From: Phoronis australis
Taxonomy: Eukaryota; Animalia; Phoronida
Assembly: GCA_002633005.1 (NCBI GenBank)
Contig: NMRA01000073.1
Span: forward strand, 890,911-954,910
Direction: 5' to 3'
Length of the DNA: 64,000 bases
Shown here: positions 2,070 through 35,783 of the stretch, piece after piece
Numbering within the stretch: position 1 is the first letter of the stretch
Layout of the letters: every line of letters begins with the position of its first letter
Notes under the pieces: generated by a model
What the model saw: only the letters and a program-made list of their open reading frames with translations
What the model was told of the DNA's origin: nothing
Databases searched by the model: none
Position numbers and translations under genes: made by a program

Positions 2070-4420
2070 TTGTTTTATCAAGACTCTGACTTTCATGTAA
2101 CGGGCGTAACTTCAACTCTTCCAAATTTCGCGGTATCTCGTGTCATGAATAACCAGAATCTCGTCATTCAAATGACTATGTTAATTAAACATTTTATTTT
2201 TCAGTTAAATTAAGCGTTTTTCATGGTTAAACCTATTTGTTAGTCATTTTCTCATACACCTTATAATTGTGGTAGATTCCAGCAGAGTGACATAATTTTA
2301 TTTACCAGAGGTCTTGGATATAGTAAATTGTTGTACATACGAAAGTTAACTATTTTATATTTTGTTCATTTTTGAAACAAATAAGTTTATTTCAAGTGTG
2401 CCAAATTTTTATTTGTTTTGCACTGCGGGATTGTGGTATGTTAAGGTGGGTTTAATTTAGCGATTCCTTCGTCGTACATACGTGTACTGTGTTCATTGCA
2501 ACTGAAATGTGGTGCTACTTCTGAGGAAATAAAACACGATAACATTTCATTAAACGGTGTATTTTTTCACTCTTTGCTATTGAAGGCTTCATAAATACGC
2601 GCCTGAACTCTAGAGAGCGATCTTTATATCACCTGTATCCACCATGTATGTTGAACTCATTAATCTTTGGTTTTGAGCTCCGATATAGTTCCACAGTGTG
2701 TATACAAAACCTGGTGTGCACAGTATAGAGAGTCGGAGACTTCAAAAACCTTGCACGAACCGGTTTCTAGAAATTTTTTTCCACCTCATTACTCACGACC
2801 ATCGCAAGTTGCTTAAAAAGAACACCAAATCATGAGTCACTCCAAATCCACGAACCATTGCTATGTGATTACTATGAACTGACAAAGGAATCTGTACATC
2901 GGATTCAATGGTTTGCTCCTCTTGGAACCATTCTACCCAGATATCTTCGATGTTTGTTCTCAACACTTGCACTTCGCTAAGATCCAATTTCAAGTGTCAA
3001 ATTCGGAACACGGCGCAATCGTAACGAAACTCTGGCAAAGTATAGGCTCTCCCGCGATAACCCAGGCGACCGGCAGTGGCGCTGCACACTACGACTCCCG
3101 GTTTCCGTCGTCTGCTTCACTGTGCAATGAAGAAAATTACTTCATTATTTAAAGAAAATGGAATCTGCGTGGCGATAAAAAAACAGAAGCTAGTGGTAAG
3201 ATGTGAATTTTAATTGAAGCCTTAGTGAAACTCTCTTTGTCAAACCTTACTTAAGACGATTTCCAAAGCAATCGCGTCATTAATGCCAACACAAAAAAGA
3301 CTATTTTAAATACAACAAATTTGTTACGAACTGATTGCACAAAATATAAAAAGTATAATAAGCATTACAAAAAGAAGTAGGTTTCGCGCGCAAACGCTGT
3401 GGACCATAAACAAGTAGGTCTCTTATTACCAAAAAAATGAGTGAAATCGTGGTGGAGTAGTGGTGAACCACGTGCGCTCTATCAGCCAGGTCGTGAGTTT
3501 GAGTCTGTGATCATTGCACTTTTTTATGTTTGACACGTTCTCCATTTTTTTCTTTTTATTTGCCTTTTTTCTTGGATAATACTTCAGGAATCAAGGAAAA
3601 TGCTTGATTGTTAGAGGAAAAAAACAAAAAAAAAAACATTCCTGGGCGGGAGGGGGGTCGCCCCCTCCCGACCTCCCCCCATTCGGTGCTATGCGCATCT
3701 AATCGTGCTTTGCACAAATGTTTTCAGACAAAATTTTGCCCCCCCCCTTATGATATCCTAGATCCGCCACTGTGTCTGGCCTGTTGGATGTCGCACAATT
3801 AAAATACTGCTGGTGTGCGGGCCAGTCACGTTACCCATTTTGATTATACGATAATTTAATTTTGAATATCTACCTCTACGAAAATCGACAGATTCATAGA
3901 TGATAACTAGTAGTTGTTATATCTGCAACTGTACCGCGTTAAGAAAAACTGAATTAGAACTTGAGTGAAACAAATATTATTATCTGCCTCTAAAAGGTAG
4001 CGCTACGATGGAGGACTCATTGCAGCCTCAAGATGGCGCTGATAGGTTTAGCCATTTCAGGCTTGGTTGTGGGAAATACATGTACTTTGTGCGCAATGAT
4101 TGGCGTCATTAAAACAAAGGCAGGTTTCAATTACTTTCACAGGCGTTGTGCTAGTCATGAAGCTGAGAAGGCATTGTTTTGGTTCGCGGTTATTTTAAAT
4201 TCCTTTTTATTAATAGTATAATAGAAATCAATATGTTTTCGAATCAAAACACATCATTTTGCAATAGTTGACACCTTAATTTCCTGCATCATACCGTTAT
4301 TTTTCATTTTTATTTTATAGGCCCTACTGCAGATATTTTCAAGCGTCAAATAGCTAACCCCCCGGCCGATCAGAGCCATCTTGAGGCTGAGGGACGAGGC
4401 TGGACTGTTCAATGAACGAT

Positions 4421-4696
4421 CACGTGACTGGGAATTTCCCTGCCCAGATCATGAACAGAATATCCCGTGGGATGGCTTTTAAACTACATTACAGGCGCGA
4501 ATAATGCTGCTAGATTCCAATTGTAATTTTTTTATGATAGACAGCCTTCAGTTTGTCGATCACTTACTAGTCATTTTGCCTCCCACGTGACCTATTTCCA
4601 GGAAATTGGTCAGGGCTACCGACTATCAGTCTCATGGAAGACCACATCAAGCAGGTACTCTAGTTCAACAGAAAGCACGTAACCTGTCTATAAATA
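4421..4696 (+). promoter_or_regulatory. Putative promoter of the ANK-caspase gene: E-boxes, NF-kB site, STAT/GAS site, TATA box
   Basis: CACGTG 4421-4426 and 4584-4589; GGGAATTTCCC 4430-4440; TTCCAGGAA 4596-4604; TATAAATA 4689-4696, about 370 bp upstream of the ATG at 5068. Confidence 0.5.
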
Positions 4697-5067
4697 GCTA
4701 TTTGTATGGAGCCAGAGATCAATAGTGTACAAACACTCCTACCTGAGGGATTCCATATATCACGAACCTCTTCCGTGGCGTTCAGCTAGGATTCCCGAAT
4801 CACTGAATTGCGGTCGTCCATTGTACGTAGACTGCCTGCGGTTACCGGAATGCCTTCGTAACGCAGAAACAGCAGTTCAATTCAATGGCAAGACTGCTGT
4901 GTACCGCTGGCAGCCTTGATTCAACCGTCGTTATCATAAATACTACAGGGTGGGAAATGAGCCAATATGAATTCCGCCGACCGCCGAACGAATCATGGAC
5001 CTGGAAGCACTCAGGGTGACGCACAGTACGTGTTGCGTCTTTTTCGTCCAAGAAGTGATTTAAGAAG

Positions 5068-7072
5068 ATGAGTAAAATGAGTAATACAAAGGATCAGTCG
5101 TACACTGAAGGCCATCCTGAGGACCATTACGTCGTGGCGTTGACGGATTTAGCTCAAAACATGAATGAAATGAGAAACACGTCTCTCATCGTTGCTTGTA
5201 AAAGAAATCACGAGGATCATGTAAAAATTTTGCTTTCTTCGAATCTCGACGACGTCAACCACGTCAATATCCATGGTGAAAGCGCTCTGTTCGCCGCGAT
5301 CAGGAATGAAAATGAATGTATCGTCATAGCGCTGGTTGAAGCCGGGAGTGCCGTGAACATTCAGAATAATTCTGGTGACTCTCCGCTAATGGTCGCCTGT
5401 GGCGTAAAGAACCTCAACATTGTTAAAATCTTGCTGCACCAAGGTGCCGATGTCGGTTTGATTAACGATCGAAACGAAACAGCCCTTCTTATAGCGATTA
5501 CGCGCTGCAGTGTTCCTATTTTGGAACTTCTCGCTTCCCGTGCTGGAAGCTCAGTGGTGAACTTTCAGCTTGAAAACGGCAATACACCTCTGATGGAGGC
5601 CTGTAGGGAGAACGCGGGATTACAAATTGTTCAAGTTCTTCTTGACAACCACGCACGTGTAGACATGACAAACAATTGCGACGAAAATTCTCTCTACATG
5701 GCTATTAGATCTGGGAATACGGAGGTTGTGAAGATCTTGCTTGATGCCGGATGTGCGGTAAACATTGAGAATCGGGATGGAACGACGCCACTAATAGAGG
5801 CGTGTAAGCAAAACCTTGACGTAAGAACTATTACCGACATAATAAGCAAATGTCACGTCGACTACATCAACAAAACTTCCATGAAAAGTGAAAATGCTTT
5901 GATGAAAGTCGTTCGCCATGGAAACACAGAAATTGTGCGACGCCTCATTGACGCAGGCCACAATGTTGATATACTTAATAATGTTGGCTACACCCCATTG
6001 CTGGTTGCATGTGAGAAGAATTTCACAGAGATAGCCATTGTACTGATAGATAAATGTCACAAGGGTTACATCAACATAACATGTCTAGAAAATGAAAATG
6101 CTTTGATGAAAGCTGTTCGCAATGGAAATTCAGACCTTGTTAGACGTCTTATTGCTGCTGGATGTTCAATGGACATGCGCAATGATAGTGGCTACACCCC
6201 ATTGCTGGTTGCCTGTGGAAATGACTCCACTGAAATAGCAATTATGTTGATTGAAAATCATGTAGATGTTAACACATTAGGCCCGGAAAATGAAAATGCC
6301 CTTTTCTCAGCTGTCTCCAACAACAATGCGTTTGTAGTTAAAAGTCTCATTGAAGCTGGAATTGACGTTGATGCTATCTGCGATGTGGGGATAACGCCAC
6401 TTACGCTGTCTGTTTTGTATTCTAATCATGACATCGCCAAAATTCTTATCGATGCCAACTGTGACGTAAATGGTGAGGCCACCGTTCTGTCACCGTTAAT
6501 GGCTGCTGTGCTGGGAAAAGGTGATGCTTTGCTCAAAAGTCTCATTGGTACCCAGTGTGATGATAGCAATGGACATCCTTCAGACACATTGAATTCTAAA
6601 CAAAGAATGGTGAGTTCTTTAGTTGAGGCTGGTGCCGATGTTTCCAGGATCGGTTACCATGGCCTCACCCCCCTTATCGCAGCTGTTGATGCGCAAGCTG
6701 TTAATGAACCCGTCGTTACATCACTTCTTAATTCCAAAGGCATCAACGTTAACTATGTTTACGACAATGGAACTTCTAAGATGTCTGCAATACATTTTGC
6801 CGCTGCAAGGGGCCATGTCCAATGCATCAAAAGCCTCATTGCGCGCGGTGCGTGTGCTGCAGGTACAGCTGAATACTGTGGTGAAGACAGCTGGACTTTG
6901 GCTCATTTCGCTGCCGCGTTTGGGCACACAGAATTGCTTCTTTATGTTAAGAATGAGCTGACGGACATCATTGACATTAAAGCAGTGAATAGCGCAGGAA
7001 AGTCACCGCTGGATTTGGCACGTGAGAAATGCAACAGGGGGGCTGTTGAAATTTTGTCGACGGAATTGCCTG
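5068..7072 (+). CDS. Ankyrin-repeat exon (exon 1 of the ANK-caspase gene)
   Basis: 668 codons of tandem ~33-aa ANK repeats (GDSPLMVAC, GNTPLMEAC, GYTPLLVAC, GKSPLDLA). Donor G|GTAAGT at 7073. Confidence 0.95.
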
Positions 7073-10000
7073 GTAAGTGGACCGCGTTCATTTTGACATC
7101 TGATCATATGAGTCATTGACTAGCCCACGCTCACTTTAATGGTAAAGTTAATTTTTTTCTACTGTGAGAAGACATTCTCCCAGTGGCCATCACTGTTCAC
7201 CACCTCGACGCTTCCGGTCCTATTTGGTCTACTATGCAGAGCTGGTAATCCGCACGCGACGTAACTTGCCAACCAACATAATAACCAGCTGTCCTTTACT
7301 CTTGCACTTTAGCTTAATTCAACCTTATAATTAATGCAGTTGACGTCGCCAACTTTTCGTGCTGTCACAAATGCACAGCATTCTTGGTCAGGTGACCTGC
7401 ATTTTGCATATTTCTGACAAAAACAAAACGGGCAGTTTTGGCAGTGTATTTATATGTCTCGTGTTATCCACATGTAATTGTTTAATAGACTTTGTTTTAC
7501 CAATCAAAAGATTAAACAGTTAAGCAGCTCCATTCCAGCCAGGACCGTCATTTAATTGTATACCTGCCTGATATTAGCTGACCCATTCTCTTCCCCCAAG
7601 TGGTTTCAGGTGGTCCACCAATCAGTTTAGCGTTTTATTGTTTGTGTTTCATCATAGGTAATCAACCCTGTGTTTCTCATAAACTTCTCTGCATCCTGTT
7701 AACTACGGAATAGGTATCATAGAAACTCTCTGAATTTTACAGAAATAGATCTACTGTTGTCGACTGTTACAGTTGTACAGTCGAGTCAGTGGAAACTGAT
7801 TCTAACCCAGTCGTTAATATTTGATCGTGAGACGGGAATTTCGTGCATATTCATGAACTAAGTTGACAAGGGGAAAGCCGCCCAAAGTGGGACCTCAAAA
7901 TCTAGACTTCGATGAACTTTTTTAGACGCGAAAACATCGCAAAAATACATACCGAGACATCGACATTCATCGCGAGTGAAGTTCTAGGCTACACCAGCTT
8001 TACTCGCGATACGTTCTTGCATCTATGGAACACGGGTCAGATTAATTCTGGCGTTATGTTTATGAGTTAAGTAGGTGAACAGAATGAACCGAAAATTGTC
8101 ATTTTTTACATACACTCATATCGAGCAATAATACTATATTATTTTTACTTTAGAAACTGCATCTGGGCCGACTCTATGGCACGACGACGAGAAAAAGTCA
8201 GACAATGCATGTAAGTTAGAGGCATTTCTCTCTATAGACCTTCGGCGGCCTTTCTTTACGGTTCTCCGTGTAAGTACCACTTCTTCATCGATGATTTTGG
8301 CACCAGTCTTCAGATCACTCAGTTTACAGCTGAGTCGATCAGAGCTACGTGGTGTGCCCACGCACCTCTGAGCTTATAATGCCAGCCCGCACTTGGGACA
8401 CTTATTCTTTCACAGCGGTGCTGTCACCTGTAGAGTATTGTAGCACTGAGATAGATCGAGCGATCCATCTTGATTAGGCACTATTGGTCTTATTAGCAAC
8501 TTGCCGCCTATTGTTCTTTCAGGTGAGAGCAACAGAACAGAGTCAGATAGCGAGAAGTCTGGACAGCAATATTCCCAGTCAATCGATATTCCTTACAGAA
8601 TGAAACATCCATGCGGTTTGATCATTGTTGTCAACAACAAAACGTTTCACCATTTGGGCAGACGAGTCGGCAGTGACAAGGATGTTGGTAAATATTTAAG
8701 TGGCTACAAACTGACATTCTGTGAAAGAAGTGAATTTTATTTAAGATCACTTCCGGCCATTAAACTGTAGAATTGGTCTCAACTTGTTCCTAGCCAATAC
8801 ACAGTCCGGCCCTATTTTGTGACTGTTTCATACTACTGGACACTGGAATCTGCGAGTGTGCGATGGGATTTTAGTCGGGTTACAAATGACGACCTAGCGG
8901 TTTTCATAGCCGTGTGGCACAGGCTGGATAAAGTTGACGTGTTGCCCTGACGGTAGCCGCGTTTCCTCGTCCACGCAAAACAACAACGTAAAAGATTTTC
9001 CGAAAATGCTGTCTTGTTTCCGAAAGCTAGGTCTTCCATTTGCAGCCATTCACAACTAATACAAGATCAACCATCCCGGGTGCACACACACAAGGTACGA
9101 TACAACAATAACTAAGATTGTAATACTCCAAGTCGAAGTTCCAACAGATGTACAGACTACCTCATCGCGGTTATTGTTGTTACGTACGTCGAATTACATT
9201 CTGTGTGCACATGGTGGAAGATCGAAATGTATGTATGCCTAGAATTGAAACCAAGGGCTTTAAACGATGACACGCAACATGATATATGCCGACAAATATT
9301 GATAGGCTTCAAAATTACAAACACGTTAGAATGTCATTTTCTGCATTTTAGAACGAGTGGTAACCATGTTTTCAAAGCTGGACTTTCAAGTGAAGGTGCA
9401 CACAGATTTGACGGCTACAAAAATCGAGGACTGCTTTGAACACTACCGTCGCCAACGTCTCAAACAGTTCAGCTGTATTTTCGTCTTCGTGATGAGCCAC
9501 GGTCTGCAGAATCACATTTGTGGAGTTGACGGGAACAGTGTTCCTATCATAGACATCACAAGCAAATTCAAAGCAGAACGATGCACCAACTTGCGAGGGA
9601 AACCCAAGTGTTTCTTTTTTGTTGCCTGTCAGACCACAACCCATAAGATGGTGGATGGTCGTTCGTAAGTATATGTCATTTTATAAGTTTTAGGATGCTT
9701 GTCAGCTACCTGGAAGCTTTATTGAACTGCCCAACATAGCAAACGTTCTAAATTGTATAGTAACCTGAGGACGCTGAGAAGTACTTTGGTAGACAAGTCG
9801 ATAGTACCAATGAGCACGCAACTGACATTTCAACTTTGAACGTTCAAAATGACGGGATGTTATCAAGTGTATGTTAAATGACATTGATGCGAGTTAGAGT
9901 GAGATGTGCACGTAACGGAATTTGTCTTCACATCAAACCATTTCAGTTTTAGTTTGAATGGTTTCCTACACTGTAAATCGAAATTTCTGAATTGAAATGA

Positions 10001-12123
10001 CATACAAAATTGATTAAATACACACTTGTTGTTATTAACAATCTTTATTCGTATCCTTGGAACAAAGTTCGACACTCATCAGAACATTGGTGAAGCAACT
10101 GACCAAGAGCTTAAAGACACACGATATTTTGAAACAAATTGTCATTCTTTGCAGTATTTCACACCTGCCGTGTCCCACTCTGTATATGTCTCCAGCTTTT
10201 GGTCTGTGGTGGTATTACTGCGTCATTTTATTTCCACTTGAGAATGAAACAAATGTTTTGGTACATCGTGAGTCTTTTAATCATGTCTCTTGGTCAGTTG
10301 CTATAGTACAGTATTGCACGTATTTGGCCAAATACCATCACAGACTTGTAGATAAGGTCCTACCATAACCTTAAGATGATTTTTATACAGGCAAGTACTA
10401 AGCTGGTTCTATTTCATGCTTAGGAATGTTGGTGCGAACACTCCTGGAAATCAAACGGAAGACATTCTATCCAGAGACGCCTCGTCTGGCTTTCCTGTCC
10501 AATCAAAAAGTAAATATTTTTTTTTCTCGAATGGTTATGCACAACCTGTTTAAAATGTTTCGTTTTGTGTTATCAAAATGATATCAGTTTCAGCGCACAG
10601 ATGATCTAAAATGGTTTGTATTTAAAGTAATGTTGCTCTCCATCAAAAATGACATGCAATAACGAACTTCCGGGTCTTTGCAAGACCAAAAGTTAATCAA
10701 CAAGGAAAAGTCCGAAATTAGTTTTATTACGGCAAGTGGTCTAAACACAGAAAACAAACTTTGATGGATAGCGTCTTTGTAGCAGCTTCAAATGGAATAT
10801 CGGATAGTTTTATAGTTAAATAAAATAGAAATTAATAAAAAGTCAAGACACATTTATGGCCCTCAGAAAATTCGTTAATTAGTACCATTCCGTTGTATAC
10901 TACATTACTTTTTTATTTTATTGCTCTAAACTGTTTTTTCCTGATAAGTAACTGTTGGATACAATGGTGTCGCGTGATTTCTTCAAAGCAGTTCATTACC
11001 ATCTTAAAGTAAATTTCAGTGATGAAACGGAATTGGCGATGAAATTTTTTATCCGGTTTAATGTTTACAGCAGGTGAAATCCAGGTTAATTATATTCCTG
11101 CCGATGAGAAGGATTTCTATGTGGTTTATTCGACAACACCAGGCCAGAGCTCTTGTCGAACGGTAAACGGAACGCCCTTTGTACAACTTCTCATAGAAAA
11201 GATAGACAAATATATACCGAAGGGAAGATGCATCACCGAAATTGTCAAGTCCCTGAACAAACATATGACGAAGAAACACAGTCAGTCATCCTTGGCATTT
11301 GAATCACTGAGGAAGAAAGTTGTACTACAGAACGATGTTACCGGATCTCGTCGAAGGGAAGAGGTTCCTGAATTTGACACCAACCATGTTACTTCGTCTT
11401 TGCCAAATGTAAGTTTTTTTATAAAAAAGTTATCATGATTTCACTGTCAACCACACAGATGACAATCAGCTCTTATTATTCTCAAAGTAACGTGAAATTG
11501 AAGATCACTCGCAAAATTTCAGTTACTGAGAAGTACGAGTAATCATTCGGAATCTGTTGAAAATGGCCATGTGTCCACTTGCATAGTCCTGTCAGATTTG
11601 TAGAAAGCTGTTGAGAAAATGTGGAGGAATTCGAAATGAACGTACGTTTTATTAAGTATTCGTATGCTCAACTGATTTTCTCATGTTTGCCGCGGTCTGT
11701 AAATGGTTGACGCATCGTAGGTCCAATTTGGACAGACGTGTCCAGCAAACAGGTTTATCATTGTTTGCAAGATTTCTCTTTAAGGAGTGTCCTGATACTG
11801 GAGCTACTGCAGCCACTGCGTCACAACTGGGAACCATTACCGAATACTTGGAAGTGGAAGACGACGAGCTGGTGACGACCAGCGATGCTCTGGAACAGCG
11901 CGTGCAAGAAGACATGAACCTACAAGAACCGGCAGCAAAAGCTCCTGATAGTGATTACACGGACGACAGCGAACCCGATAGCGACGATTTCAAAAAGTTA
12001 GAGTCCTTCGCTCAGCAAAAGACGAAGAGAAAAATTAAACGGAAACGCCCAGTGTTTGCTAGAGCACGCGGTCGTCCGGAATACTCTGCAACACGCGGTA
12101 GGGGCAGGATCAACCGCTGGTAG
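5068..12123 (+). CDS. Ankyrin-repeat/caspase (peptidase C14A) fusion protein, about 1100 aa. Exons 5068-7072, 8154-8210, 8523-8687, 9352-9664, 10424-10509, 11071-11408, 11785-12123
   Basis: All six introns are GT-AG with matching phases (1,1,1,2,1,0); total 3303 nt. Exon 1 holds about 17 ankyrin repeats (G.TPL..A). p20 motifs: YRMKHPCGLIIVVNN, RVGSDKD, VMSHG, LRGKPKCFFFVACQ. p10 motifs: DFYVVYSTTPGQSSCR, GTPFVQ, SLRKKV. AATAAA at 12335. Confidence 0.85.
9352..9664 (+). CDS. Caspase p20 catalytic exon (His-Cys dyad)
   Basis: FSKLDFQV..HTDLT, FVFVMSHG, ICGVDG, LRGKPKCFFFVACQ. Confidence 0.9.
11071..11408 (+). CDS. Caspase p10 exon
   Basis: IPADEKDFYVVYSTTPGQSSCRTVNGTPFVQLL...SLRKKVVL. NAGNAG acceptor CAGCAG at 11068-11073; donor GTAAGT at 11409. 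Confidence 0.85.
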
Positions 12124-15023
12124 CCGTTGAAACGCCTTCTATCACTGAGTTATGGAAACTGGCACATGTGTCACACTCCATACGGCATTTTAGAACGAGT
12201 GTTCATTGCAGACGCTCATTTGGACGATGGATTTTGTGAATTAAAAAAGACTTATACAGTCAGCGCTGTTTTTGGTAGACCCGCGAATATTAAGCCGACT
12301 GATAGTTCAGTGAACAACATCGGTGAGAGAAAACAATAAAGGTTTCGCGAAAATCGCTTTTACTTAAGTAACGGTTTAGTTCCTAACTCGAGAAAACTTA
12401 GCACGAGTTGGCTGAGACATGCTGCCAACTTGCAGATTTTTTTCTCAGTTATCTTCTCAGCTGGTTATTTTACCTTGCCAGTTACTGCGCTTGGCGTCGA
12501 AAAACTTGACACTGCACTTCCTAAAGTAACACTCCGAAAAAGTGACTGCAGGTTGAATAAACAAATAAGGGCCTGTGAAATGATACCACGCATTACCGAG
12601 GCAACACGCACACTCACACTATATGATCGCAGCACCAACACACAAGTGAAATACCAATTGTTTTCTCTGAATAGAAGTATTTCTTCAATGACAGATGGGT
12701 GCGCCCATGGATATGTGACAAAATGCTGCCGAAAACAAATATTTCACCATTTAAAAACAGAATGACCTACAGCTGATTGGGCAAATACATTGTCTTGGGG
12801 ATGTCAGGTCAAGACCATCGAGCTCGAAAAACACGAGGTGACTAAAACCAACGAAACGAGGGTCCTGAAGAGCAGCACGTTTAAATTGGGATGAGTAAAC
12901 AAAAAGGGGGCGCTTCATATAGATGGACCAAAATCAACTTGAACTCGCATCACAAAAATGACCTGAAACATAGATTTCTTAAACAGTTTCTCATGAGCAA
13001 GACTTAGGGGACCCCTTCAAACGTAACCAGTTAGGGGCTCCGTGAACACTTCCCTTTCGAAAGTCGTTTGCCCCCTCCCCCCAATACAACATTGTTAATC
13101 GGCCAGTTTGGTCACCTTGGTTACCTCAAGTTTACAGGAATTGTATATGGAATATGATGAGGATTACATCACTGAATTTCAATTTACACCAAAATTCATT
13201 GAAATCAAAATTTCTTTTTAAAAGGTTCATTTAGGCCTATAATTTACAAAAATCGTTTATGTACATGTATCAGGACTTATAGTTCGTACACTTGTAAATC
13301 AGACAGTAAAGAAAATTTGTTATCTTTAGTCATGTTCAACGTACCATGCGCGCTCCCAGCCTGCAAAAATGGGGGGGGGGGGGCGGAATGTGGATCATTT
13401 ACTAAGATTCACGGGCACGTTCAGAGCTATGAATGGTGTATTCGCCGAATTTTGGTAGTTCTTGCTCCTTAGTAGACTTTTCTCTGTTTTCTACTTTTTT
13501 TCCGCGTTTTTGTTTCTCTTAGGCGAACTTTTTTTCCCATTTCGCCGAATGGGGGGAGGTTAATATGACTTTCCTGTACGTTGAGTTGATACGTTTTTTT
13601 TAAATCCTTGTTTTTGATGAGAAATCTTTTTGTGGGCTCCAGAAGGCATGAGCACAAATACCCTAGAGTTTACATCATGCTCAAGAAGACTATGAGTAGA
13701 GTTCATCCCGCCACGTGGGTTGTGGGGGGCTCTCCCAGCAGATCATGAGACACAAACATGACTTTAGGAGGAACACACTTTAATTACGTTAACGTGTGTA
13801 CGACTGACAATCTGAAACATGCTTGTCATAAGCATGGCAAAATGTATCCAATTTAGGGCGCCCTCTGGCGGACACCTGAAATTTTGTTTCACCATTATTC
13901 CACGCGACATATGCATAACCACATTAAATGAATTTATGTGTTCAAGTTTTGTATCACCGTTACCAACAGATAAAGTTTTGAAAAATTGCGCACATTCACA
14001 ACAATGTTTGGAGCTGTTGCCGGAAAAATGCAAAAAGTCAAATTTGGAATTCATTTTTGTTTGACATTGGCATGATTTGACCATGATGGTCTCTGATTAG
14101 ATTAACTGTTTGATTGATAGCTTCACATCACTGATAATTACTACACATTTATTTTGAAACACACAGGAAATGATGAAATGGAAACAAGAGAACACATTTC
14201 TATTCTTAATTTCGCCTACTACATTGAAATGCAACTAACAATGTATAGAAAGAAAAATATTCAGTTTTGTTCACTATTTAGCACGAAAAAGGCTAACTCC
14301 TGGGTCCCTACCACAGTAGACTATAAAACCTCGGCGTTTTAGACAACAGTCTTTTCTCTACACCTAAAGTCTAACGAGACACTTCCAAATAACTTATTAA
14401 GTGCCAGTCGAAGCTGTATGTTGTCTACTCTATGGTGCTGCCACTCTCTGGCCACTTCCAATTTATAAACACAAAAGGACAATACTGACTTAGCCCATGG
14501 TGGTTATTTAAAGTGAACAGTGAATGAGTGAAGTATAAGCTAGGACTTGAAGAAAACAACAAGTCACAATTTAGTTGGCCATGCACCCTATATACCTTCA
14601 TATCACACTACCATCTCCACAAGTCATGACAGCTGATTTCCTCTAAGCGCTGCCAAATGCATTTCAGCCTTAGCACCAACTACAGTAAATCTTGCCTCGC
14701 GCTTCCATCACCTCCTCTGCCTAACACAATTGTATCAGCAATTTCTAGAGGGAAAAACGAGACCTCAAAGAAACGCGTAGCCCTGACAGAATTTTTGATT
14801 TTTTACCATTTGTGAACAGCCCTGTGAAACCTGAAGCTGGTCCAAAAACATTTCAAATCAAAACCGCATATAGTGCTGATACAATCAGAAACTTGTGATT
14901 TTTGAACAGAACCGCTCCAGATTTTGCATTAGCTTTGGCTAAGAAGCTGGCTAATGTCTACACACATTTCAGAGGTTATTTCACCAAAATGGCCTCTCAG
15001 TTAAGATTACTCCGAAATAGTGG

Positions 15024-17495
15024 TCACGTGAACAGTGTTCTCAATGTCATGGCTTCCTGGTGCATGTCTTCAGCGGATCTGAACTGGGGTGAGTTCTCTG
15101 GAAGCTCTTGCCCTTTGTCATCTTTATCGTGAGTGGCGAGCTGCAACAAAGCGGAAACACTTAATGAGCCAGCCAATCAAAAGGGTTCCATGTTAATTCT
15201 GATGACCTCGGACTAATTCTGATCATCAAACGCTTGGCCAGACTTGACCTCAAAATTTCCCAATGGACAACCACAGCTAACAATTTCCTTCAGGAAATTC
15301 TTTTAGACCTTTCGACCTCCCGCTCAAACCATTCTTTTAGGGGTGGTTCGCTTGAACTCCCCCCCCAAGCTATGAGTGAGCACCATCAGAAGTGATGTTT
15401 AAACAGGCTCACAATATAGTTCAGACTTTTCTAAGCACATACGGTGCTACCAATGCAATACAATTGACAGATCAAGTCATTCATTGACATGTTCAACACC
15501 GTTTAGTAGTCATCTACAGACACAGCTGGATAACTCACACACTAACATTGCAGTGTTTACATCAATTTGTAGTCTCAGAATGAAGTCCCCGGGTAAGTAA
15601 GAGGTTCTACCGTACGGGACATTAGTAATTAGACAAAACAAGTAATGTCTCACCAATTTCAGACATAAGATTGCGGACAAGTGAATTTTTTCATAAAGGA
15701 CATGTTGCACCAAGATAATAATCCATCAAGTTCAACTTCTGTAACCATAGCCACCAACAATGTTTTGAGAAAATATTATATTGTATTGTATTGTATTGTA
15801 TTGTATTACTTTATGATCAATCGATGCTAAGCTGACATAGTATGTCAATCAAACAAAAAGGTGTAAACTTCCCAACTCAGATTCTTTAAATGATAACCAT
15901 AGAAAGCACGGCACCTTTAAGAACAACCACGGTAGTATTACACCACGGTAGTATTACATCATCAATGATTGTACTCACTTCTTGATACACCGTATCGTTT
16001 TCATCAAAATCTCCAGGTTTCCTTGGCAACACATGTACATGAACATGCTACAAAATGTTAAGAAACACTAGGTTAAGGTAACTCACTACACTCCTTTACA
16101 GTACTATGAAAGGCAGCACTGGGAAAGGATCATGAAACGTGTGTTCGCGTTGGTTTACAGAACTAAGTAACAGACATTCCGATTGGTTGATGCTGGGAAA
16201 TGCTTAAGCATACTGCTCATCTGTTTAGAAATGCTATGTGACTTGTGACTCTTGAAACAAGGAGAAAAGACTATATCGGCAAATTCCATCCAGGGTTGTG
16301 TTTAAAGACACATTTGAGACACAAGTTGACAAGACATCAAATAAAACAACAAAACAATTCACTATACTTTCCCGGCACATTCCCAGAACACACATTTATG
16401 ACAACTTCAAAACCAAGGCATTCCCACTCATGCCAATACACAGTTCTGCTTGTTGGGCCATCATTCTTTCACAGGGTAACTCTCCTCCACAGATGGTGCT
16501 GTGACTGAGAAAAGCTAACTGACCACCTCCGTTACGAAGGATCAGATTTCAAGCAGATTGATAAATTCCGATCCTTGATAACAAAGGTAGTCTGCTAAAC
16601 CTTCCCCTCGCGGAGTTCATAAAAGCTTTCTGCAGTCCAAGGTTAAATATGATTGACTAAATAAAGCCTGTAAGGACCTATAGGACTGACAAATGCGAGG
16701 TCTTTAATGTTGAAATCTTCTATCACAAGGAATTGAAAACCTGTAGTTGGTTGACAAAAGCTTGCTATTCTAATTACAATAACAGAAAACATAAAACGCA
16801 GAGTGAATACTATTGTTAAATTTTACCTCTACGGTTTGACCAGCGTCAGCACCATCTTGTATTGCAATCGTCAGGGCTGTGGCTTTGTAATGGCGTTCCA
16901 GGACTTTGGAGACAGTCTGAGAGGTCACAAACATATCTGACACTTCATCGGGAGTAAGGTCAGCGAACTTCTTAGCTAAACGGAATGGTGAAATCAGCAC
17001 ATCTGACAAAGAGTTAAGGTCAAAACAACAATTCAAGGCCCGAGGCACAGTTACATCTCCACTGAAACTGTTTATCTGTGAATGGATTTGCAATGCAAGT
17101 TGTGATTTTGACAAAGAATGTGCACGAACACCTGTAGAGATATAGTCAGAATTGAAACAAGATTTAGTCAAAAAGAATGGTTATTTAATTGTGGTTACAT
17201 AATTTGGTGAATTTTGATGCAGCTGTTCACTATTTAAGTTTGAAAACTAATGTTGCATTTGTGTATGTTCTAACAGAAACAAGACCAGCAGTATTTCATA
17301 CTGATGAAAGTAGAAACCTAACATGGTTAATGACATAGGAGACCACGCAACAGTATGCTAAAAAGATACGTCCTGCCACCACTGGTTTCCTGTTGACAAA
17401 TGCATAGGACAGTGCCGACTTGTAGAACACGTTGTCAGATGAGATCCAGTGTTGGCCAAACTGATAGGATTCTGAGAATCTGTCTTCACAGGGAG
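15024..17495 (-). CDS. FHIT: Fhit (HIT family) half of NitFhit, last four exons
   Basis: HVHVH histidine triad in exon 16047-15979; terminal exon ends ...[10 protein letters not shown] at 15024. Confidence 0.92.
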
Positions 17496-20400
17496 CTGCA
17501 ATAAAATTACTTCACATTTCAGGAACTGAAAATTAGAGCTCGAAGGAATGCAATTACTTTTCATCAGACTTTCGTTAAAAAATTGAATATACGACTGGAC
17601 TGAAATTATCTTTAATTCGTGTATTAATGAATACCAGGAAGGAATAATTTTGCAATCTGATAGTGCTGGAGCCAATATTTTGCCCCTCAGAATGTTATTT
17701 GTTGCACAGTGACAAAATTTTAATGCTAAATCTCATACAATGGTATTACTTAGCCACCTTTTGTTAGTGGCGTAATTCGTCCATAGAGGTCGTGCCGGCG
17801 ATGCAATTGAAGCGGCATCTGTTGGCGAACTTTCCCAACATAGTCCAGATCAATGTGGGCGAAGCATACATCTGTCCCTTCATGGCACTGGGCTACCACT
17901 GCGCCCCATGGATCAACCACCTACACAGGTAGGTAAAGGTATTTACCACCTACACAAGCAGGTATTTTAAGGTATTTACATCTCATGGATCTGTTTATGA
18001 AGTAAAATATGAATAAACTCAGTTGACTATGACGCTCCCACTCTGACACATCACTGCTAAAAAATAATTTATGAAAACTATCTGCACAACCAGCAGTTAT
18101 GTACATGATTATATTTTTAGAGACCCTGTACTTTTGTTGAGGTAAGATACAGTTATTTTTCAGAAACACTTGTGAGGAGCGCAAGACAAAGTTTCTGACT
18201 TGAGCCTAAAGTAAACCCCTCTACTTATATTCGGCTGACGTTAAGCTGCTGGCTCGCAAACGCAACCTCGAGCAGACTGCATCCCAGCTGGCTGAGTTCA
18301 ATGATGGCAGCCGCCTGCTCGAAGCCGGTATTATTTATGGCCATGCTACGAAGAGTCACAAGAAGAGCCGTACCCGAGTGCTGTCTAATCAAATGCTTAC
18401 AGGCAACATCAGCCCTGGGGTTCTGCACCTTCTGCTGTCACGGGGATGGTCTGGGGAGGGGATTAATGCACCACCATATCCCCAATGATCCTGTCCGTGA
18501 CAGGTATTACAGGTATTACAGCCTAAAGTAAATTTTGCTGAAAATGGTCCCCGAGTTGCACGGTGACCTATCCCTAATAGAAATATCTGACAACATCAAC
18601 GTGAATGTTATCCAAAACACAAGTGTATGATGTGTTCAAGCTGTAATAACAATGACTTGGGGGGGACTACAGCACGTGCATGGACTGTAGGTGCCACATT
18701 TAAACCTTGATTGAGATCACGCGACTCTTATGCAATATCTCTACGCTTGCCAAAAGAACTGTCATTATCATCACTATTGTAAGTGTAATTAATACTATGT
18801 ACTATTGTTATAATTATTATTATGAGCCAGTTGTAATTATTATTAAAGAGGTAAGTGCTACCCCAGCCACTGCTATTACCAGTATGCCCTTCTCACCATA
18901 GCATGTCCGTATGAAAGTCTCTTGTCATTGTTCTTGCCAGTCTGTGCAGCGGCAATAACGTAGCACTGGTTCTCTATAGCTCGACTCCGTAATAGCACCT
19001 GTATCCGGTAATGGAAAGAAACACGTTACCACAACTTTAACTACGGGGAGTAATCGTTTCTTATGACACATGACACTATAGACTGAAGTTCACTGAATAG
19101 AGCTTCAACAAAAGACGAACCATACACTTTCTTGAACTTGTAGCAATTTTGCAATTTCAGCTTGAAGATGTAATTGCATGCTCCAAACTATGCTAATATA
19201 TAGCAGGAACTAAACAAAGTGCAATTGTATTTATTGAGCTTGCCAATGTGAAAGCAAAAATTTCTGCATATAGGTGACCTTTGAACTAATGACACTCCTC
19301 AAGGGCTCACATAGCCCGCATCATGCAGTGGAATTCCCCAGCACCACATCACCATACTTATTGGACATGGTTGTGATTTGCAGCGGAACATTTTCGTCAC
19401 GAAACTCGTTCTTAAAAACATTTCACAATTTTCAACCTACTTCATATTCACACCATCACTACATATTGCGTTTCCAACTAATTTGGCCAAGCAATCACAG
19501 AGACAAGGAATTAGCGTGCAAGTTCCACTTTAACCTAATTAGTACTGAGTGGGACTTAACCATGATGCAGACATTGATTGGCCTCTTTTAGAAGGTGTAG
19601 CATTTTAAAGGCATCACAAATGGCAGATCAATGTACTTAGGAGTCAACTTGGTAGTTGGTCATCTTGGTGACCATTGTTACTGAACACACTATAACTGTT
19701 CATAGAACAGGAAATTGGGAGTATACCGGCCACCACAAATGCTTTCACAACAATCCATTTATTTGGAAGGGTATGCGCAGAAGAGCTATCAGCTGACCTG
19801 TCTGCCTTAAGTGAATGGTAACTGAGCTGACAACTCACATGAATGATCAAAGGTGTGAAAATACAATTGAACTAACTAGCTGCTTCTTAATTTTTGTCAC
19901 ATTTCCACAACAATGAACTAGCGGCAAGATCATTTAATTGTCATCAAATTTTTACGTCTTGGCTTGAGCTGTCAGTTCCGTTACCCGTCACTAGAGGCAG
20001 ACAGGTCAACTCATATCCCTAAAATAGATGGGGTTTCAATACTATTCACATTTTATTTATCATCAGTACATACAATGTTTTTCAAAATCATGCGAATACA
20101 TTATTCCTAATAACAGATGACTCACTGTGCCACACTGGAAACGGGTCAGAATGTTGCATTGTGGAAATATTAATATCAATTTGCAAACAAATCTATCAGT
20201 AAGAGAAGGAGGTTAAAATTTGTTTTTTTCTGTTAGCCAAACTTTAGAACAGCACAGAAAGTCAGAATCACTACCAACGGGATATTTTCAAGTAGCAACG
20301 TGCTGACTGATNAAGTAAATTTTCCTGAAAATGGTCCCCGGGTTGCACGGTGACCTATCCACAATAGAAATATCTGACAACATGAACGTGAATGTTATCC

Positions 20401-23400
20401 AAAACACAAGTGTATGACATTTGTGTTCAAACTGTAATAACAATGACTTGGGTGGGGGGGGGACTACAGCACGTGCATGGACTGTAGGTGCCACATTTAA
20501 ACCTTGATTGAGATCATGCGAATCTTATGCAATATCTCTACGCTTGCCAAAAGAACTGTCATTATCATCTTTGTTGTCACCACTATTGTAAGTGTAATTA
20601 ATACTATGTACTATTGTTATAATCCTCATTATGTACTATTGTTATAATTATTATTATAGAGGTAAGTGCTACCCCAGCCACTGCTATTAAGTATGCCCTT
20701 CTCACCATAGCATGTCCGTATGAAAGTCTCTTGTCATTGTTCTTGCCAGTCTGTGCAGCGGCAATAACGTAACACTGGTTCTCTATAGCTCGACTCCGTA
20801 ATAGCACCTGTACACGGTAAGCGAGAGAAATGCGTTAGCACAACTTTAACTATGGGGAGTAATCGTTTCTTACGACACATGACACTATAGACTGAAGTTC
20901 ACTGAATAGAGTTTCAACAAAAGACGAACCATACACTTTCTTGAACTTGTAGCAATTTTGCAATTTCAGCTTGAAGATGTAATTGCATGCTCCAAACTAT
21001 GCTAATGTCTAGCAGGAACTAAACACAAAGTGCAGTTGTATTTATTGAGCTTGTCAATGTGAAAGCAAAAATTTCTGCAAATAGGTGACCTTTGAACTAA
21101 TGACACACTTCAAGGGCTCACATAGCTCGCATCATGCAGTGGTATTACCCAGCACCACATCACCATACTTATTGGACATGGTTGTGATTTGCAGCGGGAC
21201 ATTTTCGTCACGAAACTCGTTCTTAAAAACATTTCACAATTTTCAACCTACTTCATATCCACATCGTCACTGCATATTGCATTTCTAACTAATTTGGCCA
21301 AGCAATCACAGAGATAGGAAATTAGCCTGCAAGTTCCACTTTATACTAATTAGTACTGAGTGGGACTTAACCATGATGCAGACTTTGATTGCCTTCTTTT
21401 AGAAGGTGCAGCATTTTAAAGGCATCACAAATGGCAGATCAATGTACTTAGGAGTAAACTTGGTAGTTGGTCATCTTGGTGACCATTGTTATTGAACACA
21501 GTATAACTGTTCATAGAACAGGAAATTGGGAGTATACCGGCCACCACAAATGCTTTCACAACAATCCATTTATTTGGAAGGGTATGCGCAGAAGAGCTAT
21601 CAGCTGACCTGTCTGCCTTAAGTGAATGGTAACTGAGCTGACAACTCACATGAATGATCAAAGGTGTGAAAATACAATTGAACTAACTAGCTGCTTCTTA
21701 ATTTTTGTCACATTTCCACAACAATGAACTAGCGGCAAGATCATTCAATTGTCATCAAATTTTTACGTCTTGGCTTGAGCTGTCAGTTCCGTTACCCGTC
21801 ACTAGAGGCAGACAGGTCAACTCGTATCCCTAAAATAGATGGGGTTTCAATACTATTCATATTTTATTTATCATCAGTACATACAATGTTTTTCAAAATC
21901 ATGCGAATACATTATTCCTAATAACAGATGACTCACTGTGCCACACTGGAAACGGGTCAGAATGTTGCATTGTGGAAATATTAATATCAATTTGCAAACA
22001 AATCTATCAGTAAGAGAAGGAGGTTAAAATTTGTTTTTTTCTGTTAGCCAAACTTTAGAACAGCACAGAAAGTCAGAATCACTACCAACGGGATATTTTC
22101 AAGTAGCAACGTGCTGACTGATCACATGGGACCGGATACCACTGCCTGCTTGAGGATGATGGGAGTAATTTAACTTTCAGGGAAACATTTGGCGTCTTAT
22201 CACATACACCGTGAAAGGGCATTTTCACAAAGTCACACACACCACCTGCTGTGTAGAAAAGCCGGTGGTAGTACGAATCACGTAATTCCACATGATCAAT
22301 CACCCTCTGTTACTTTCTGAAAGTTTCCCATTGCTGGTAAACCTGAGAAAACATGGGCATGACACAGAGCTGGCAACAAACGGTGATTCAGGTAATTCAT
22401 CATCCACCGGGCCATCGCCACCGCTGCCACACCCTCAACACATACCTCCCAATGAGCCAGTCCCGTTGGCACAGTGAAATTCGACGGGTAGGTGAGAATC
22501 TCAGCTCCCAGCTGTGTCAGGGCCGTAGAAAATTCTGGAAACCTTAGATCATAGCACTGTAAACAAGGCTAAGGAGTTGCGAGTGGAACACACACATTTT
22601 TACGATGAACACAAGAGGGCGCTGGGTCGGCAAGATTTTTAGATTTGATGGTTCTTGCAATTTAAAAAAATATCGAAGACTAATTATCAACAACGTAAAC
22701 TGCCGGGGTGGTAAAACTTTAAATATCGTCCGCGACCAAAATTTGTTAGAGAACAGGGCTTGGAATGACCAATGACAGAAAACGCGGAAACTTTGAAACT
22801 TTTACGGCCCAAATCATGCCCGATAACCAGCCTTGAAATGGTCACTGTGACAAAAATCGGAAGGACTAAAAAAAAAAAATAATAAAACCGTTACCGTTAC
22901 CACCATCAGTACATCAGTAGCATTAATCTGCGTCCTTTTAGCTCGCCCGTCAGCTCCCAACCCACACCTTTTTGACTGCAGAGCGGTAGTATTTGTCACC
23001 GCGCTTAACAATAACACGGGACGCCATTGAAAATCCCACCACGCTGTCCCAGATGCCCCGGCAATGTTGACAACTTACGTTCCTCCGAAACATAAAGAGC
23101 AACTTCCGCTTTACGAGGTGAACGTCGTCTCCAACGCCGCGGAAAGGAATTTGCCGCGCAAATTTTATATCAAATCCGATTTTTTTACGCGGAAAGCACA
23201 TTTGAAATAAGCGGAAATCCGCGTTTCCGCAGAAAATTCCAAGCCCTGAGAGAAGCGAGGCTAAAGATAGTGCCCACAAAGGTGACTGGGATGGTATGAT
23301 CCAAGATACCACCCAATACAGCAGCTTACCTAATACAAGAACTAGAAAGCAAAGGTCGGAGTTCAAAAGAAGTCAAGAAAACCACACGTCCTCACAAAGC

Positions 23401-26400
23401 CAACAACAGCACCATATGCAAATATTTCAAAATCAATGTGTACTCTTGTGCAGTGGACCTGTCCCATTGGTGCAAAAATACATTTGAATTCATGAATTCT
23501 CAGTGTCTGTACAACATATTACTTGTACGCTCAACATGGTGGTGGTGGTGGTGGTGGTGTTTTCTGCATCCAGACAGAACTGAAAATTTAAAAGGAGTAG
23601 CTCAACTTTAGTAAGAGACCTCACACAATTATCACCATTTCCAATTAAACACTTTCCTTTTTCTGCTCCCAAACATGTGCCAAAGTTTAGAGTAAGGTAT
23701 CTGTTGCCAAGCATTACCCAACTGCCCGAATGATTACATCAAAGGATTATCGCGACTGTATTGTACCCTGTTGGTGGTTTCGTCCACTTTTCAACAACGC
23801 CCAAATTGCATAAACAAAGAGTTAAATTTTGGTGTTTTTCTATCACCATTTTTATGAGCAGACCAAAAGCATGTTTTAATAGCAAGCCTCAGTGACGTGA
23901 CAATACTTGGGAATGGTCCCATACAAAACAAATATACATTTCATAGTCATTACATAGATGATTGGTAGGAAAATAATAATTTGTGGAGAGCAGTTTGCCT
24001 TGTCTTGTTTTGGTGCAATGCCAATCCCAGAAGTAAGGATACAACACCGAGCCCAACGCGACCAACAGGTGTCGCCACTGGAGGTACGATGCAGGTTCCT
24101 GGCTTTACAACTTTAGATTCCTGCAACAAGAAATAACAAAACAGGTAATTAAGACCTAGTAATAACATGTATTGACATCAAAACTATTGAAAATTGATAT
24201 TAAGCATTTGATCATTTGTTGTGGATGTCAGTAGTTTAACAATACAAACCAAAGTAGGACCAGAAACATGTCATGAAGGCTAATTACCCGTGACCAGTAA
24301 TGACCAGGTAACTCAAATGACCGTTGGTCATTCCAGGTGCTTCGACAGTTTTTCGCAAGTATACCTGTTCTTCATGATAAAGCTTGACTAGTCTTTGGCT
24401 GTCCTGGGTAATTACTCATCCTTGTATTGGTGATTACGTATCTCACCTAAGGCATGCTGGGATATGTGTCCTCTACACACTTGTACCACTAAGCTTACAT
24501 CCTTTTTGTTCTTTTATCAGTAATTTTGAAGTCTTTACAAAATAAAATGTCACAAAAATATTGCATTGTCGGACACCATAAATAATAACACCCCTGCTGA
24601 CTTAGATTACTTAGATTGATCATAGAAGTAGTCTCAATTTGTATATTTCTTGGATTAGAATGTCAATTATACGGTAATGCAACCAGGAGCATGTGATAAC
24701 TGCAAATAAGTACAAGACTCTATACATCTTATACACGTAGTCGCCATTTTAAAGTGAGCCTCATTTTAGGTTTAAAAAACAGTGCATTCTACGCTCAATC
24801 ACAGCACTAAGGGTAATTTTCTTTTTTATCCATGCCTCGTTATATTTACCTATCAAATGCATTGTTTTTAAACCTAAAAAGAGGCTCACTACTAAAATGG
24901 CAACTGCGTGAATATGGTTTATCAGGGACCTGCAGGTCACTATTAATGAAACTTCGGATTTTGTATGAAAACCTGGCTAGTAATAATTACAGCTTGTCAC
25001 GAAGTCACCACACACATCCGAGCACACAATCAAAATACTACAGGAAGTAAACAGACGGAAGTTGCAATCTTTCACAGAAAATTGGAAAGGCCTGTTTGTG
25101 AAACATGCACACATAATGTCCTGTTTATAGGCCCTTGCCTTAGGAGGTGAGCCTGAGTGGGATATTGGGTCCCGAGGAGGGGAACTGGTAGTTTCAAAAA
25201 GAAAACACAGTTTGGACTGACATTTGCTAAGTTTGCCAGTTTTTCACTCCAGGTACATATATCTCATTTACGGCTCCTGTCAACAGTGCGTCGTTTGTAG
25301 TGCTTTGATCTAAGCAACCTCAGTTTCTGTGTTGGCGACCTGGGAATTTTACCAAGTTGCATTTACCGAGTTGACATTATGCTAAGCATCGAGCCCTGAG
25401 GTACAAAATGCACGAAAAAATACATCGAGACGAACTGTCAAGTAAAGAATAAATTGATGCTTACACACAATGACACATTGATACCATTGTCATAGTCATA
25501 GAGATGAGTCTTACAATAGGTGGCGCTGATGTCACCCTGGTTGTTCACTACAACATGAGTATTGCTCAATCTTGGATCTTCGTCATGTCTCTGAAATAGT
25601 AAAACAGATCACAATAGCGAGATTTTCACAGAATTTCCCAAAATCATGTTAGTGATCTAGGAAATGACACTTCAAATGATTTCATCGAATTTGTAAAAGA
25701 AAATTAGCTTTTGCTGTTATGAAGCTGCCTTCAGCCAAAAAGACTACCTTTTTACTTCAAAAATCTCTAATACGAAACAAATCTCAACTTGCGTTTTATT
25801 CCAAGAAGTGACTCGCCATAGCTTAGGAAGAACAGGCAGTCTGTCATGGGACAAGCCTCAGCTCAGAACATGTACTGTGAAAACTGTTTTCAATCTTACA
25901 CAGGTTCAGAAAATTGACAATTTCTACTGATTGAAAATTGGTAAATTTAGTTAGCAAATGATTTAAGTTCCCTCTGGGTTTTCCCACAATTTTGACAAAA
26001 CTTCAAGGGAACGCAACTTTTGAGACCCACTAGACTAAGAAAGTGACACCATTAACAGTATAAAGTGCCTTTTCATGAAAGCCTCCAAGTGACAGCCAAA
26101 CGTTTAGTTGCTTTGCAAGTTGCCTATACTTCGTAATCAGCTCCCCATCCACTGGTTCAGCTAGACACTTGCTTTCTACAGCATCACTGCCAACGTAATC
26201 AAAGCACTCGGGCAGGAAAACCATCTGAAATATATTTCAAAAACTACATTTGAACATACACTTATTGCAACATTGAAACAAGCACAGAATGAGAAATAAG
26301 AACTGCAAAAAGAAGTTAAAGCAAAAGTAAAGATAAGAAACTATGTGAATTTTGATGAGTTTGAACACTTTACTACTAGGCGAGGAGAGACTTTCCACTT

Positions 26401-35653: not shown

Positions 35654-35783
35654 CTGAAAGTAATTGTTTAGTGGGATGAAACGACGTGAACCAACACCTC
35701 AACTGTTGCACAGATACATAAGTGTATCTGATACCAGACAACAAGTATCAGACAACAATTGGGAGTAAAAAGCCATAACTCAC

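What the first reader, a model, noticed from the sequence alone, without database searches (positions are those of the whole stretch)
5068..12123. Ankyrin-repeat sensor fused to a caspase: candidate undescribed invertebrate immune or cell-death protease
Seen: the ORF track shows only separate pieces, but six phase-compatible GT-AG introns join about 17 ankyrin repeats to a complete p20/p10 caspase and a charged tail (about 1100 aa). Known: well-studied initiator caspases use CARD or DED prodomains, while ANK arrays serve as ligand scaffolds or autoinhibitory modules (IkB/p105, RNase L, TRPA1). Inference: a one-chain sensor-effector in which ligand binding or cleavage of the ANK array dimerises or unmasks the protease without an adaptor. 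I cannot tell how widespread ANK-caspase architectures already are in invertebrate proteomes.
Basis: partly seen in the sequence, partly recalled or inferred. Interest (0 to 1): 0.88.

Follow-up and report, generated by a model that had tools for sequence, protein, structure and literature searches.

The report
Expressed ankyrin-repeat caspase with altered pocket
This animal gene is spliced so that ankyrin repeats are joined to a cell-death-type protease (caspase), a design already reported in parasitic flatworms and one annelid; here the gene encodes about three times as many repeats and a changed substrate pocket, so it likely works as a ligand-triggered protease with targets of its own.

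Summary
Seven exons give an open 1100-aa frame: 18 ankyrin repeats, caspase p20/p10 and a charged tail. RNA reads support 5 of 6 joints, including ANK-to-caspase, and almost nothing reads on past the TGA at 7119. The last intron looks partly retained (997-aa tail-less form). An unbroken transcript over the whole array is not shown.

The design is not undescribed. Horkan et al. 2024 name 'ANK caspases' in parasitic flatworms and Alitta virens. I also found ANK+caspase in a jellyfish, Macrostomum and a 55-member, mostly arthropod Atlas cluster. This scan noted one before on other DNA (e1-7499377).

What differs: 18 repeats against about 4-6, and VACQT for QACxG with other groove changes, while His, Cys and both S1 arginines are kept. 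No close relative was found (best 36% identity). The best tree placement is beside a DED caspase-8 clade holding an ascidian protein, but kinship with the flatworm clade is not rejected.

Best reading: an initiator-type zymogen, likely clustered and switched on through its ankyrin array. Ligand, activity and adaptor independence are untested.

The parts
5068..7072 (+). Exon 1: ATG plus 18 ankyrin repeats (aa 39-668). Repeats 1-13 alternate between two types, as from repeated duplication of a two-repeat unit; repeat 14 carries an insertion of about 26 aa
   Evidence: (identity 36.5% at even offsets vs 26.3% at odd; 0 of 10000 permutations reached it)
5848..6257 (+). Internal 204-bp tandem duplication (two ankyrin repeats), 73% identical
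7073..8153 (+). Intron 1, the joint that fuses ANK to caspase; holds the in-frame TGA 7117-7119 that ends the raw ORF
   Evidence: 1+3 reads; depth about 0 over 7115-7295
8154..8210 (+). Exon 2: prodomain-to-caspase linker
8523..8687 (+). Exon 3: linker with candidate cut site TESD696|S (inferred), first p20 strand, S1 Arg735 (8663-8665)
9352..9664 (+). Exon 4: p20 core; catalytic His792 (9498-9500) and Cys835 (9627-9629) in VACQT; Val833 replaces the S1 Gln; candidate site MVD844|G (inferred)
10424..10509 (+). Exon 5: p20-p10 linker; candidate sites TED860 and SRD865 (inferred)
11071..11408 (+). Exon 6: p10; S1 Arg905 (11157-11159) kept; groove changes Q901, C904, P911; dimer strand LAFES 950-954
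11409..11784 (+). Intron 6, apparently often retained; in-frame TGA at 11436-11438 gives a 997-aa form
11785..12123 (+). Exon 7: acidic then basic, RG-rich tail (KTKRKIKRKRP, NLS-like by inspection); transcribed, but its splice joint was not listed
   Evidence: 139 of 5000 shuffles give so long an ORF
12124..12340 (+). 3' UTR with AATAAA at 12335; an X1 contig stops fitting at 12332

Best explanation
The gene splices ankyrin repeats onto a caspase that keeps its catalytic His and Cys, and the protein likely works as an initiator-type zymogen whose ankyrin array takes the place of a DED/CARD prodomain: binding a multivalent protein partner would cluster it, let the protease domains dimerise and self-cut, and then cut a narrower or shifted set of targets. 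Shown: splicing of ANK to caspase, the dyad, both S1 arginines, the changed pocket, and no DED or CARD. Inferred: monomeric resting state, activation by clustering, cutting at the linker aspartates (D696, D844/860/865), altered specificity, and a role in immunity or cell death. The partner could be a host scaffold as easily as a microbial protein, so 'no adaptor' is not established.
For: RNA joints and no read-through. Best solved-structure match is caspase-8 (E 1.2e-17, against 1.4e-13 for caspase-7 and 2e-11 for caspase-2). Of 40 long homologues scanned, 23 carry DED and 6 CARD (I chose these 40 of 150 by rank and length, plus the 4 ANK hits). His792, Cys835, Arg735 and Arg905 match 141/152, 142/151, 122/138 and 117/138 aligned domains. 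The dimer strand is LAFES, unlike the executioner-like C-I/V-T-S-T/M pattern. Phe952 lines up, by the five-residue register, with caspase-9 Phe404, which is reported to impede dimerisation (PMC1088972 passages). Dronc lost the same Gln (PFCRG), is active and cuts after Glu as well as Asp (PMC2180229 passage). Repeat-sensor fusions to caspase domains recur: ANK in 4 of 150 hits, LRR in 2 and Ig in 1 of the 40 scanned. Horkan et al. propose the same initiator role for ANK caspases. No stop or frameshift among the listed allele differences (8 synonymous, 10 not, of 18; list truncated by the tool).
Against: No ligand, induction, localisation or activity data. Several groove residues depart at once: V833 (Gln in 123 of 152 rows, Val in 1), T837 (Gly 122/151), C904 (0/142; aromatic 107), P911 (Trp 81/145). 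The end branch is long (1.86 against median 0.61), which also fits relaxed selection. Ankyrin arrays do not self-polymerise like death-fold domains (general knowledge, recalled). Chao et al. found that dimerisation alone did not give full caspase-9 activity. Expression is low (depth 1-7) and repeats 2-14 are thinly covered.
Confidence: 0.45

Rival explanations
1. Targeting protease: the ankyrin array picks or localises a specific substrate for a non-lethal cut rather than sensing a trigger. The spliced basic tail would send one form to the nucleus.
For: The groove is rewired while the dyad is intact. Tailed and tail-less forms are likely. Tails of 100 aa or more are rare: 2 of 68 single-domain homologues. 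Low steady expression in three RNA runs.
Against: No substrate or localisation data. The tail's splice joint was not listed.
Confidence: 0.2
2. Autoinhibition: the array folds back on its own caspase domain (IkB-like), and ligand binding or a cut at TESD696 releases an active protease.
For: A roughly 45-aa polar linker with a candidate cut site allows fold-back. Designed ankyrin proteins can bind and inhibit caspases (cited in PMC11463336; I saw the reference titles only).
Against: The non-executioner dimer strand already implies a resting monomer, with no clamp needed.
Confidence: 0.15
3. Near-dead regulatory caspase (cFLIP-like in function): it heterodimerises with or scaffolds another caspase and has little activity of its own.
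For: Four or more conserved groove residues are changed together, and the branch is long.
Against: His792, Gly793, Cys835, Arg735 and Arg905 are all kept, whereas cFLIP is described as having an inactive caspase domain (passage in PMC8195603). Dronc precedent.
Confidence: 0.12
4. The main product is a short ANK caspase (repeats 15-18, starting near Met514 or Met572) from an internal start or a shorter allele, much like the published 4-6-repeat forms; the 18-repeat form is minor or allele-specific.
For: X2 and X3 show 0 reads over 5305-6571, where about 26-62 would be expected at flanking depth. Coverage in X1, X2 and X3 resumes near 6570-6760. Acceptor-like sites lie at 6682 and 6739.
Against: X4 reads and an X1 contig lie in mid-array. 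The ORF is open for 668 codons. No joint or loose end is listed there. The tool warns that its filter creates such dips.
Confidence: 0.08

Closest known systems
ANK caspases of parasitic flatworms (Lee et al. 2014, not held; Horkan et al. 2024, PMC11463336; e.g. Schistosoma japonicum TNN08539.1 = P0176)
   Same: N-terminal ankyrin prodomain plus p20/p10, no DED or CARD, caspase-8-like domain; shares the MSHG...GVDGNS stretch in p20
   Different: About 4 repeats detected in P0176 against 18. They keep QACRG. The caspase domain is only 30-34% identical (ranks 13, 42 and 64 of 152), and the ANK parts barely align (E 0.22). Placement inside the clade is rejected (AU at most 0.004); placement as its sister is not (AU 0.12).
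Alitta virens ANK caspase c83651_g1_i1 (Horkan et al. supplement)
   Same: Same domain order; called a convergent fusion by the authors
   Different: About 520 aa with about 6 repeats by eye and QSCQG; clearly another sequence (compared by eye only). The authors could not exclude a chimeric prediction, whereas here reads span the joint.
Mostly arthropod ANK + Peptidase_C14 cluster in the ESM Atlas (55 members, 951-aa representative)
   Same: Same Pfam set in 100% of members and a similar length (queried with P0176, not with this protein)
   Different: Its sequences could not be fetched, so kinship to this gene is untested.
DED caspase-8/10, in particular the six-member clade holding Phallusia mammillata caspase-8 (CAB3227935.1 = P0196)
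   Same: Best placement of 87 edges; highest residual similarity (rank 1 of 102 rows, z 2.2); shared FFF-x-ACQ and SHGL
   Different: No DED; Gln and Gly of QACQG lost; 40 of 87 edges are not rejected; only 1 of the 6 clade members is named.
Drosophila Dronc (PFCRG)
   Same: Long-prodomain caspase lacking the S1 glutamine (PMC2180229)
   Different: CARD prodomain and apoptosome activation (recalled); not tested for orthology here.

Membership tests
Caspases (MEROPS C14A, Pfam PF00656) | p20 and p10 subunits in one chain | tested here: met
Caspases (MEROPS C14A, Pfam PF00656) | His-Cys catalytic dyad | tested here: met
   H792, C835
Caspases (MEROPS C14A, Pfam PF00656) | Two S1 arginines for a P1 acid | tested here: met
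   R735, R905
Caspases (MEROPS C14A, Pfam PF00656) | QACxG consensus (typical, not universal: Dronc departs) | tested here: not met
   VACQT
Caspases (MEROPS C14A, Pfam PF00656) | Cleavage after Asp | not testable with these tools
   needs an enzyme assay
ANK caspases as an architecture (Horkan et al. 2024) | Ankyrin prodomain joined to p20/p10, no DED or CARD | tested here: met
Parasitic-flatworm ANK caspase clade | Monophyly with the flatworm sequences | tested here: inconclusive
   Mixture-model AU p 0.56 with lnL 2.6 higher, but an unrelated control union was not rejected either (p 0.52). Fixed-backbone placement: stem rank 34 of 87, 13 lnL worse, AU 0.12; inside the clade rejected.
Parasitic-flatworm ANK caspase clade | Host is a parasitic flatworm | tested here: inconclusive
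   The neighbour-gene search gave 3 uninformative hits; no genome is held.
Parasitic-flatworm ANK caspase clade | QACRG retained, short array | tested here: not met
DED caspases (caspase-8/10) | Tandem DED prodomain | tested here: not met
DED caspases (caspase-8/10) | Caspase domain nested in the DED clade | tested here: inconclusive
   DED side; beside a CARD caspase; no starred branch holds it
DED caspases (caspase-8/10) | Recruitment by FADD | not testable with these tools
   no DED to do it; needs a binding assay
cFLIP-type pseudo-caspases | Loss of catalytic Cys or His | tested here: not met

The most novel reading that the evidence does not exclude
An independent ANK-caspase fusion, born from a DED caspase-8 in a tunicate or other deuterostome (a clade where Horkan et al. 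say none was seen). It would be an adaptor-free immune sensor-protease with an 18-repeat array that varies between individuals, a rewired non-Asp-strict pocket, and a splice switch adding a nuclear tail.
Probability: 0.15. Interest if true: 0.7.

Novelty: new variant of a known kind. Interest (0 to 1): 0.42.

Why it matters
ANK caspases are in print as sequence predictions, and for the annelid set the authors could not exclude chimeric gene models. Here reads span the fusion joint. With the jellyfish, Macrostomum and arthropod cases, the data suggest that swapping a death-fold prodomain for a repeat module has happened many times, beyond the 'parasitic flatworm' picture. None of my 10 literature searches listed a paper whose title or abstract start reports testing how such a caspase is switched on. 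This gene, with a long array and an unusual pocket, is a concrete test case for caspase activation without DED or CARD.

Tried and rejected
Word-index search with p20: 0 of 9 candidates. With the ANK exon: 2916 hits of 7998 candidates; the 120 listed are generic (22-31% identity) and none carries PF00656. Host lineage from the FHIT exon: 3 hits of 53, two of them fungal, uninformative. No RNA holder was listed by index; X2-X4 came by species label, and their reads were then laid. The single-sequence AlphaFold model of exon 1 is low confidence (pLDDT 50, pTM 0.37); it was used only to see helix pairs, and no fold search was run. The complex prediction of ANK with the caspase pieces gave no verdict, so fold-back binding is open. 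The Atlas could not read the window's own sequences; a query with P0263 gave no usable hit. Trees: the careful search did not finish. Placement changed with the row set, and AU tests under the mixture model rejected nothing, including a control. The signature count favoured schistosomes (15) over the Phallusia clade (9), but the three schistosome-type rows are near-copies. Motif search of the Horkan supplement: VACQ 0, NGTPF 0. The aphid caspase paper has no mention of ankyrin (PMC7768685). Rejected: two separate genes (joint reads, no read-through); identity with the Alitta or flatworm sequences; pseudogene (frame open, spliced, no breaks listed).

Full report
1. Observation. The raw ORFs are separate, but seven exons joined at GT-AG introns give an open 1100-aa frame. 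Pfam finds ankyrin repeats in exon 1 and Peptidase_C14 in exons 4 and 6. I count 18 repeats. Repeats 1-13 alternate between two types (36.5% identity at even offsets, 26.3% at odd; 0 of 10000 permutations as high), and a 204-bp duplication is still visible in the DNA, so the array likely grew by two-repeat steps.

2. Transcripts. One contig set and three stranded RNA runs (about a fifth of each read) were laid on the locus. Five of six joints are listed, including 7072/8154 with 1+3 reads, and depth falls to about zero beyond the donor at 7072. Two points stay open. The last joint is not listed, and intron 6 carries sense reads at an estimated 1.9 (X2) and 3.9 (X3) against exon depths of 3.9 and 6.0; a 997-aa tail-less form is likely. 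The tail ORF is longer than 97% of shuffles give, so a spliced form probably exists too. Second, X2 and X3 have no reads over 5305-6571, while X4 and X1 cover parts of it. The tool warns against reading dips, so I treat full-length continuity as unshown, not refuted.

3. The protease. The nearest solved structure is caspase-8. Against 152 homologous domains, the dyad (H792, C835) and both S1 arginines (R735, R905) are kept, but the pentapeptide is VACQT. Val stands where 123 of 152 rows have Gln, Thr where 122 of 151 have Gly, Cys904 where 107 of 142 have an aromatic, and Pro911 where 81 of 145 have Trp (the text labels for rows 834-838 in that output are shifted by one, the residues shown are right). 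A review passage states that this Gln is part of the pocket and that Dronc, lacking it, cuts after Glu as well as Asp (PMC2180229, 2 passages seen). The dimer strand LAFES is unlike executioners and puts Phe at the caspase-9 Phe404 position (PMC1088972, 8 passages seen). I infer an active, normally monomeric enzyme with shifted specificity.

4. Relatives. HMMER over 1.84 billion representatives gave 2697 hits, of which the best 150 were examined. None is close: best 36% over the domain. Four of the 150 carry ankyrin repeats: Schistosoma japonicum, two from Macrostomum lignano, and the jellyfish Sanderia malayensis. An Atlas query with the schistosome protein returned a 55-member eukaryote cluster, commonest Arthropoda, with Ank and Peptidase_C14 in all members (score 0.95). 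An earlier AI note of this scan reports an ANK caspase in another, probably arthropod genome (not checked).

5. Literature. Horkan et al. 2024 (PMC11463336; I saw the abstract, sections 5 part 1, 6, 12 and 15, passages, and supplement rows and sequences by search; no figures) describe ANK caspases as a clade of parasitic flatworms, sister to DED caspases, first seen in Schistosoma (Lee et al. 2014, not held). They add one convergent case in Alitta virens and state that none had been seen in deuterostomes or ecdysozoans. Ten searches listed no other paper on ANK caspases apart from its preprint, and none reporting a functional test. Subscription journals are largely missing from the library, and bioRxiv supplements were not seen. 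PMC8195603, PMC7768685 and bioRxiv 2021.12.21.473695 were seen as passages only and added nothing decisive.

6. Origin. The trees do not settle it. The row is long and moves between row sets (153, 46 and 35 rows; the smaller sets were hand-picked, with most long branches left out). Under the mixture model, union with the flatworm clade is not rejected (p 0.56, likelihood slightly higher), nor is union with the jellyfish pair (p 0.20) or an unrelated control (p 0.52). On a fixed 45-row backbone the best of 87 edges is the stem of a DED clade containing Phallusia caspase-8. The flatworm stem is 13 lnL worse (AU 0.12); the jellyfish and Macrostomum edges and those inside the flatworm clade are rejected. 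40 edges are not rejected, and 0 of 9 divergent controls run (I listed 9) land on the Phallusia clade. A residual-similarity test agrees (rank 1 of 102, with 10 clades tried). A signature count points the other way but is biased. An independent origin from a caspase-8-like gene is my preferred reading, at about 60%; the host phylum is unknown.

7. Mechanism. Most likely (0.45) the ankyrin solenoid replaces DED as the docking module: a multivalent partner clusters zymogens, which dimerise, self-cut in the linkers and cleave a restricted substrate set. Rivals are substrate targeting (0.2), autoinhibition (0.15), a near-dead regulator (0.12) and a mainly short product (0.08). All steps after splicing are inferred.

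8. Verdict. A real, expressed gene of a known but untested design, and a distinct variant in array length and pocket. Interest 0.42.

Noticed in passing
window 15889-29760, minus strand: Nitrilase exons (PF00795 at 26033, 22299, 20607) followed by HIT exons (PF01230 at 16773), read as a NitFhit-type fusion gene lying tail to tail with the caspase.
   Followed up: partly
window 18526-20311 / 20313-22122 and 32599-32959 / 32961-33321: Two tandem duplications (95% and 99% identical), each split by a single N; one repeats a nitrilase exon. They may be uncollapsed haplotypes in the assembly.
   Followed up: no
window 10060-10302 (intron 4): Small element with 16-bp inverted ends and reads on both strands at 20-80x depth with loose ends: a high-copy MITE-like repeat.
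   Followed up: no
window 4400-5067: Sense-strand reads upstream of the ATG, 12 upstream ATGs, and a pyrimidine tract with AG ending at 5052: possibly an upstream exon, a trans-splice acceptor or a separate transcript.
   Followed up: partly
window 31107-35698 and 40719-44702, minus strand: Very long single-exon ORFs (935+624 aa across an N, and 1328 aa). The 935-aa and 1328-aa ORFs have no Pfam match; the 624-aa ORF was not scanned.
   Followed up: no
window 47821-48252 (+) and 50704-51006 (-): P2RX7_C-like and THAP ORFs, probably transposon-related (the link to transposons is recalled).
   Followed up: no
P0155 (Sanderia malayensis, EukProt): Jellyfish protein with ANK-caspase-ANK-caspase (DACRE/NACRE); outside the clades where Horkan et al. 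list ANK caspases. A predicted gene model, unchecked.
   Followed up: partly
P0207, P0263 (Macrostomum lignano): Kinase-caspase-ANK-caspase records from a free-living flatworm species in which Horkan et al. report a kinase-prodomain caspase. They may be merged tandem genes, since shorter members exist in the cluster.
   Followed up: partly
P0186 (Ptychodera flava), P0254 (Saccoglossus kowalevskii), P0192 (Umbra pygmaea): LRR-caspase-8-like proteins in two hemichordates, and an Ig V-set-caspase in a fish: other repeat or receptor modules fused to caspases.
   Followed up: no
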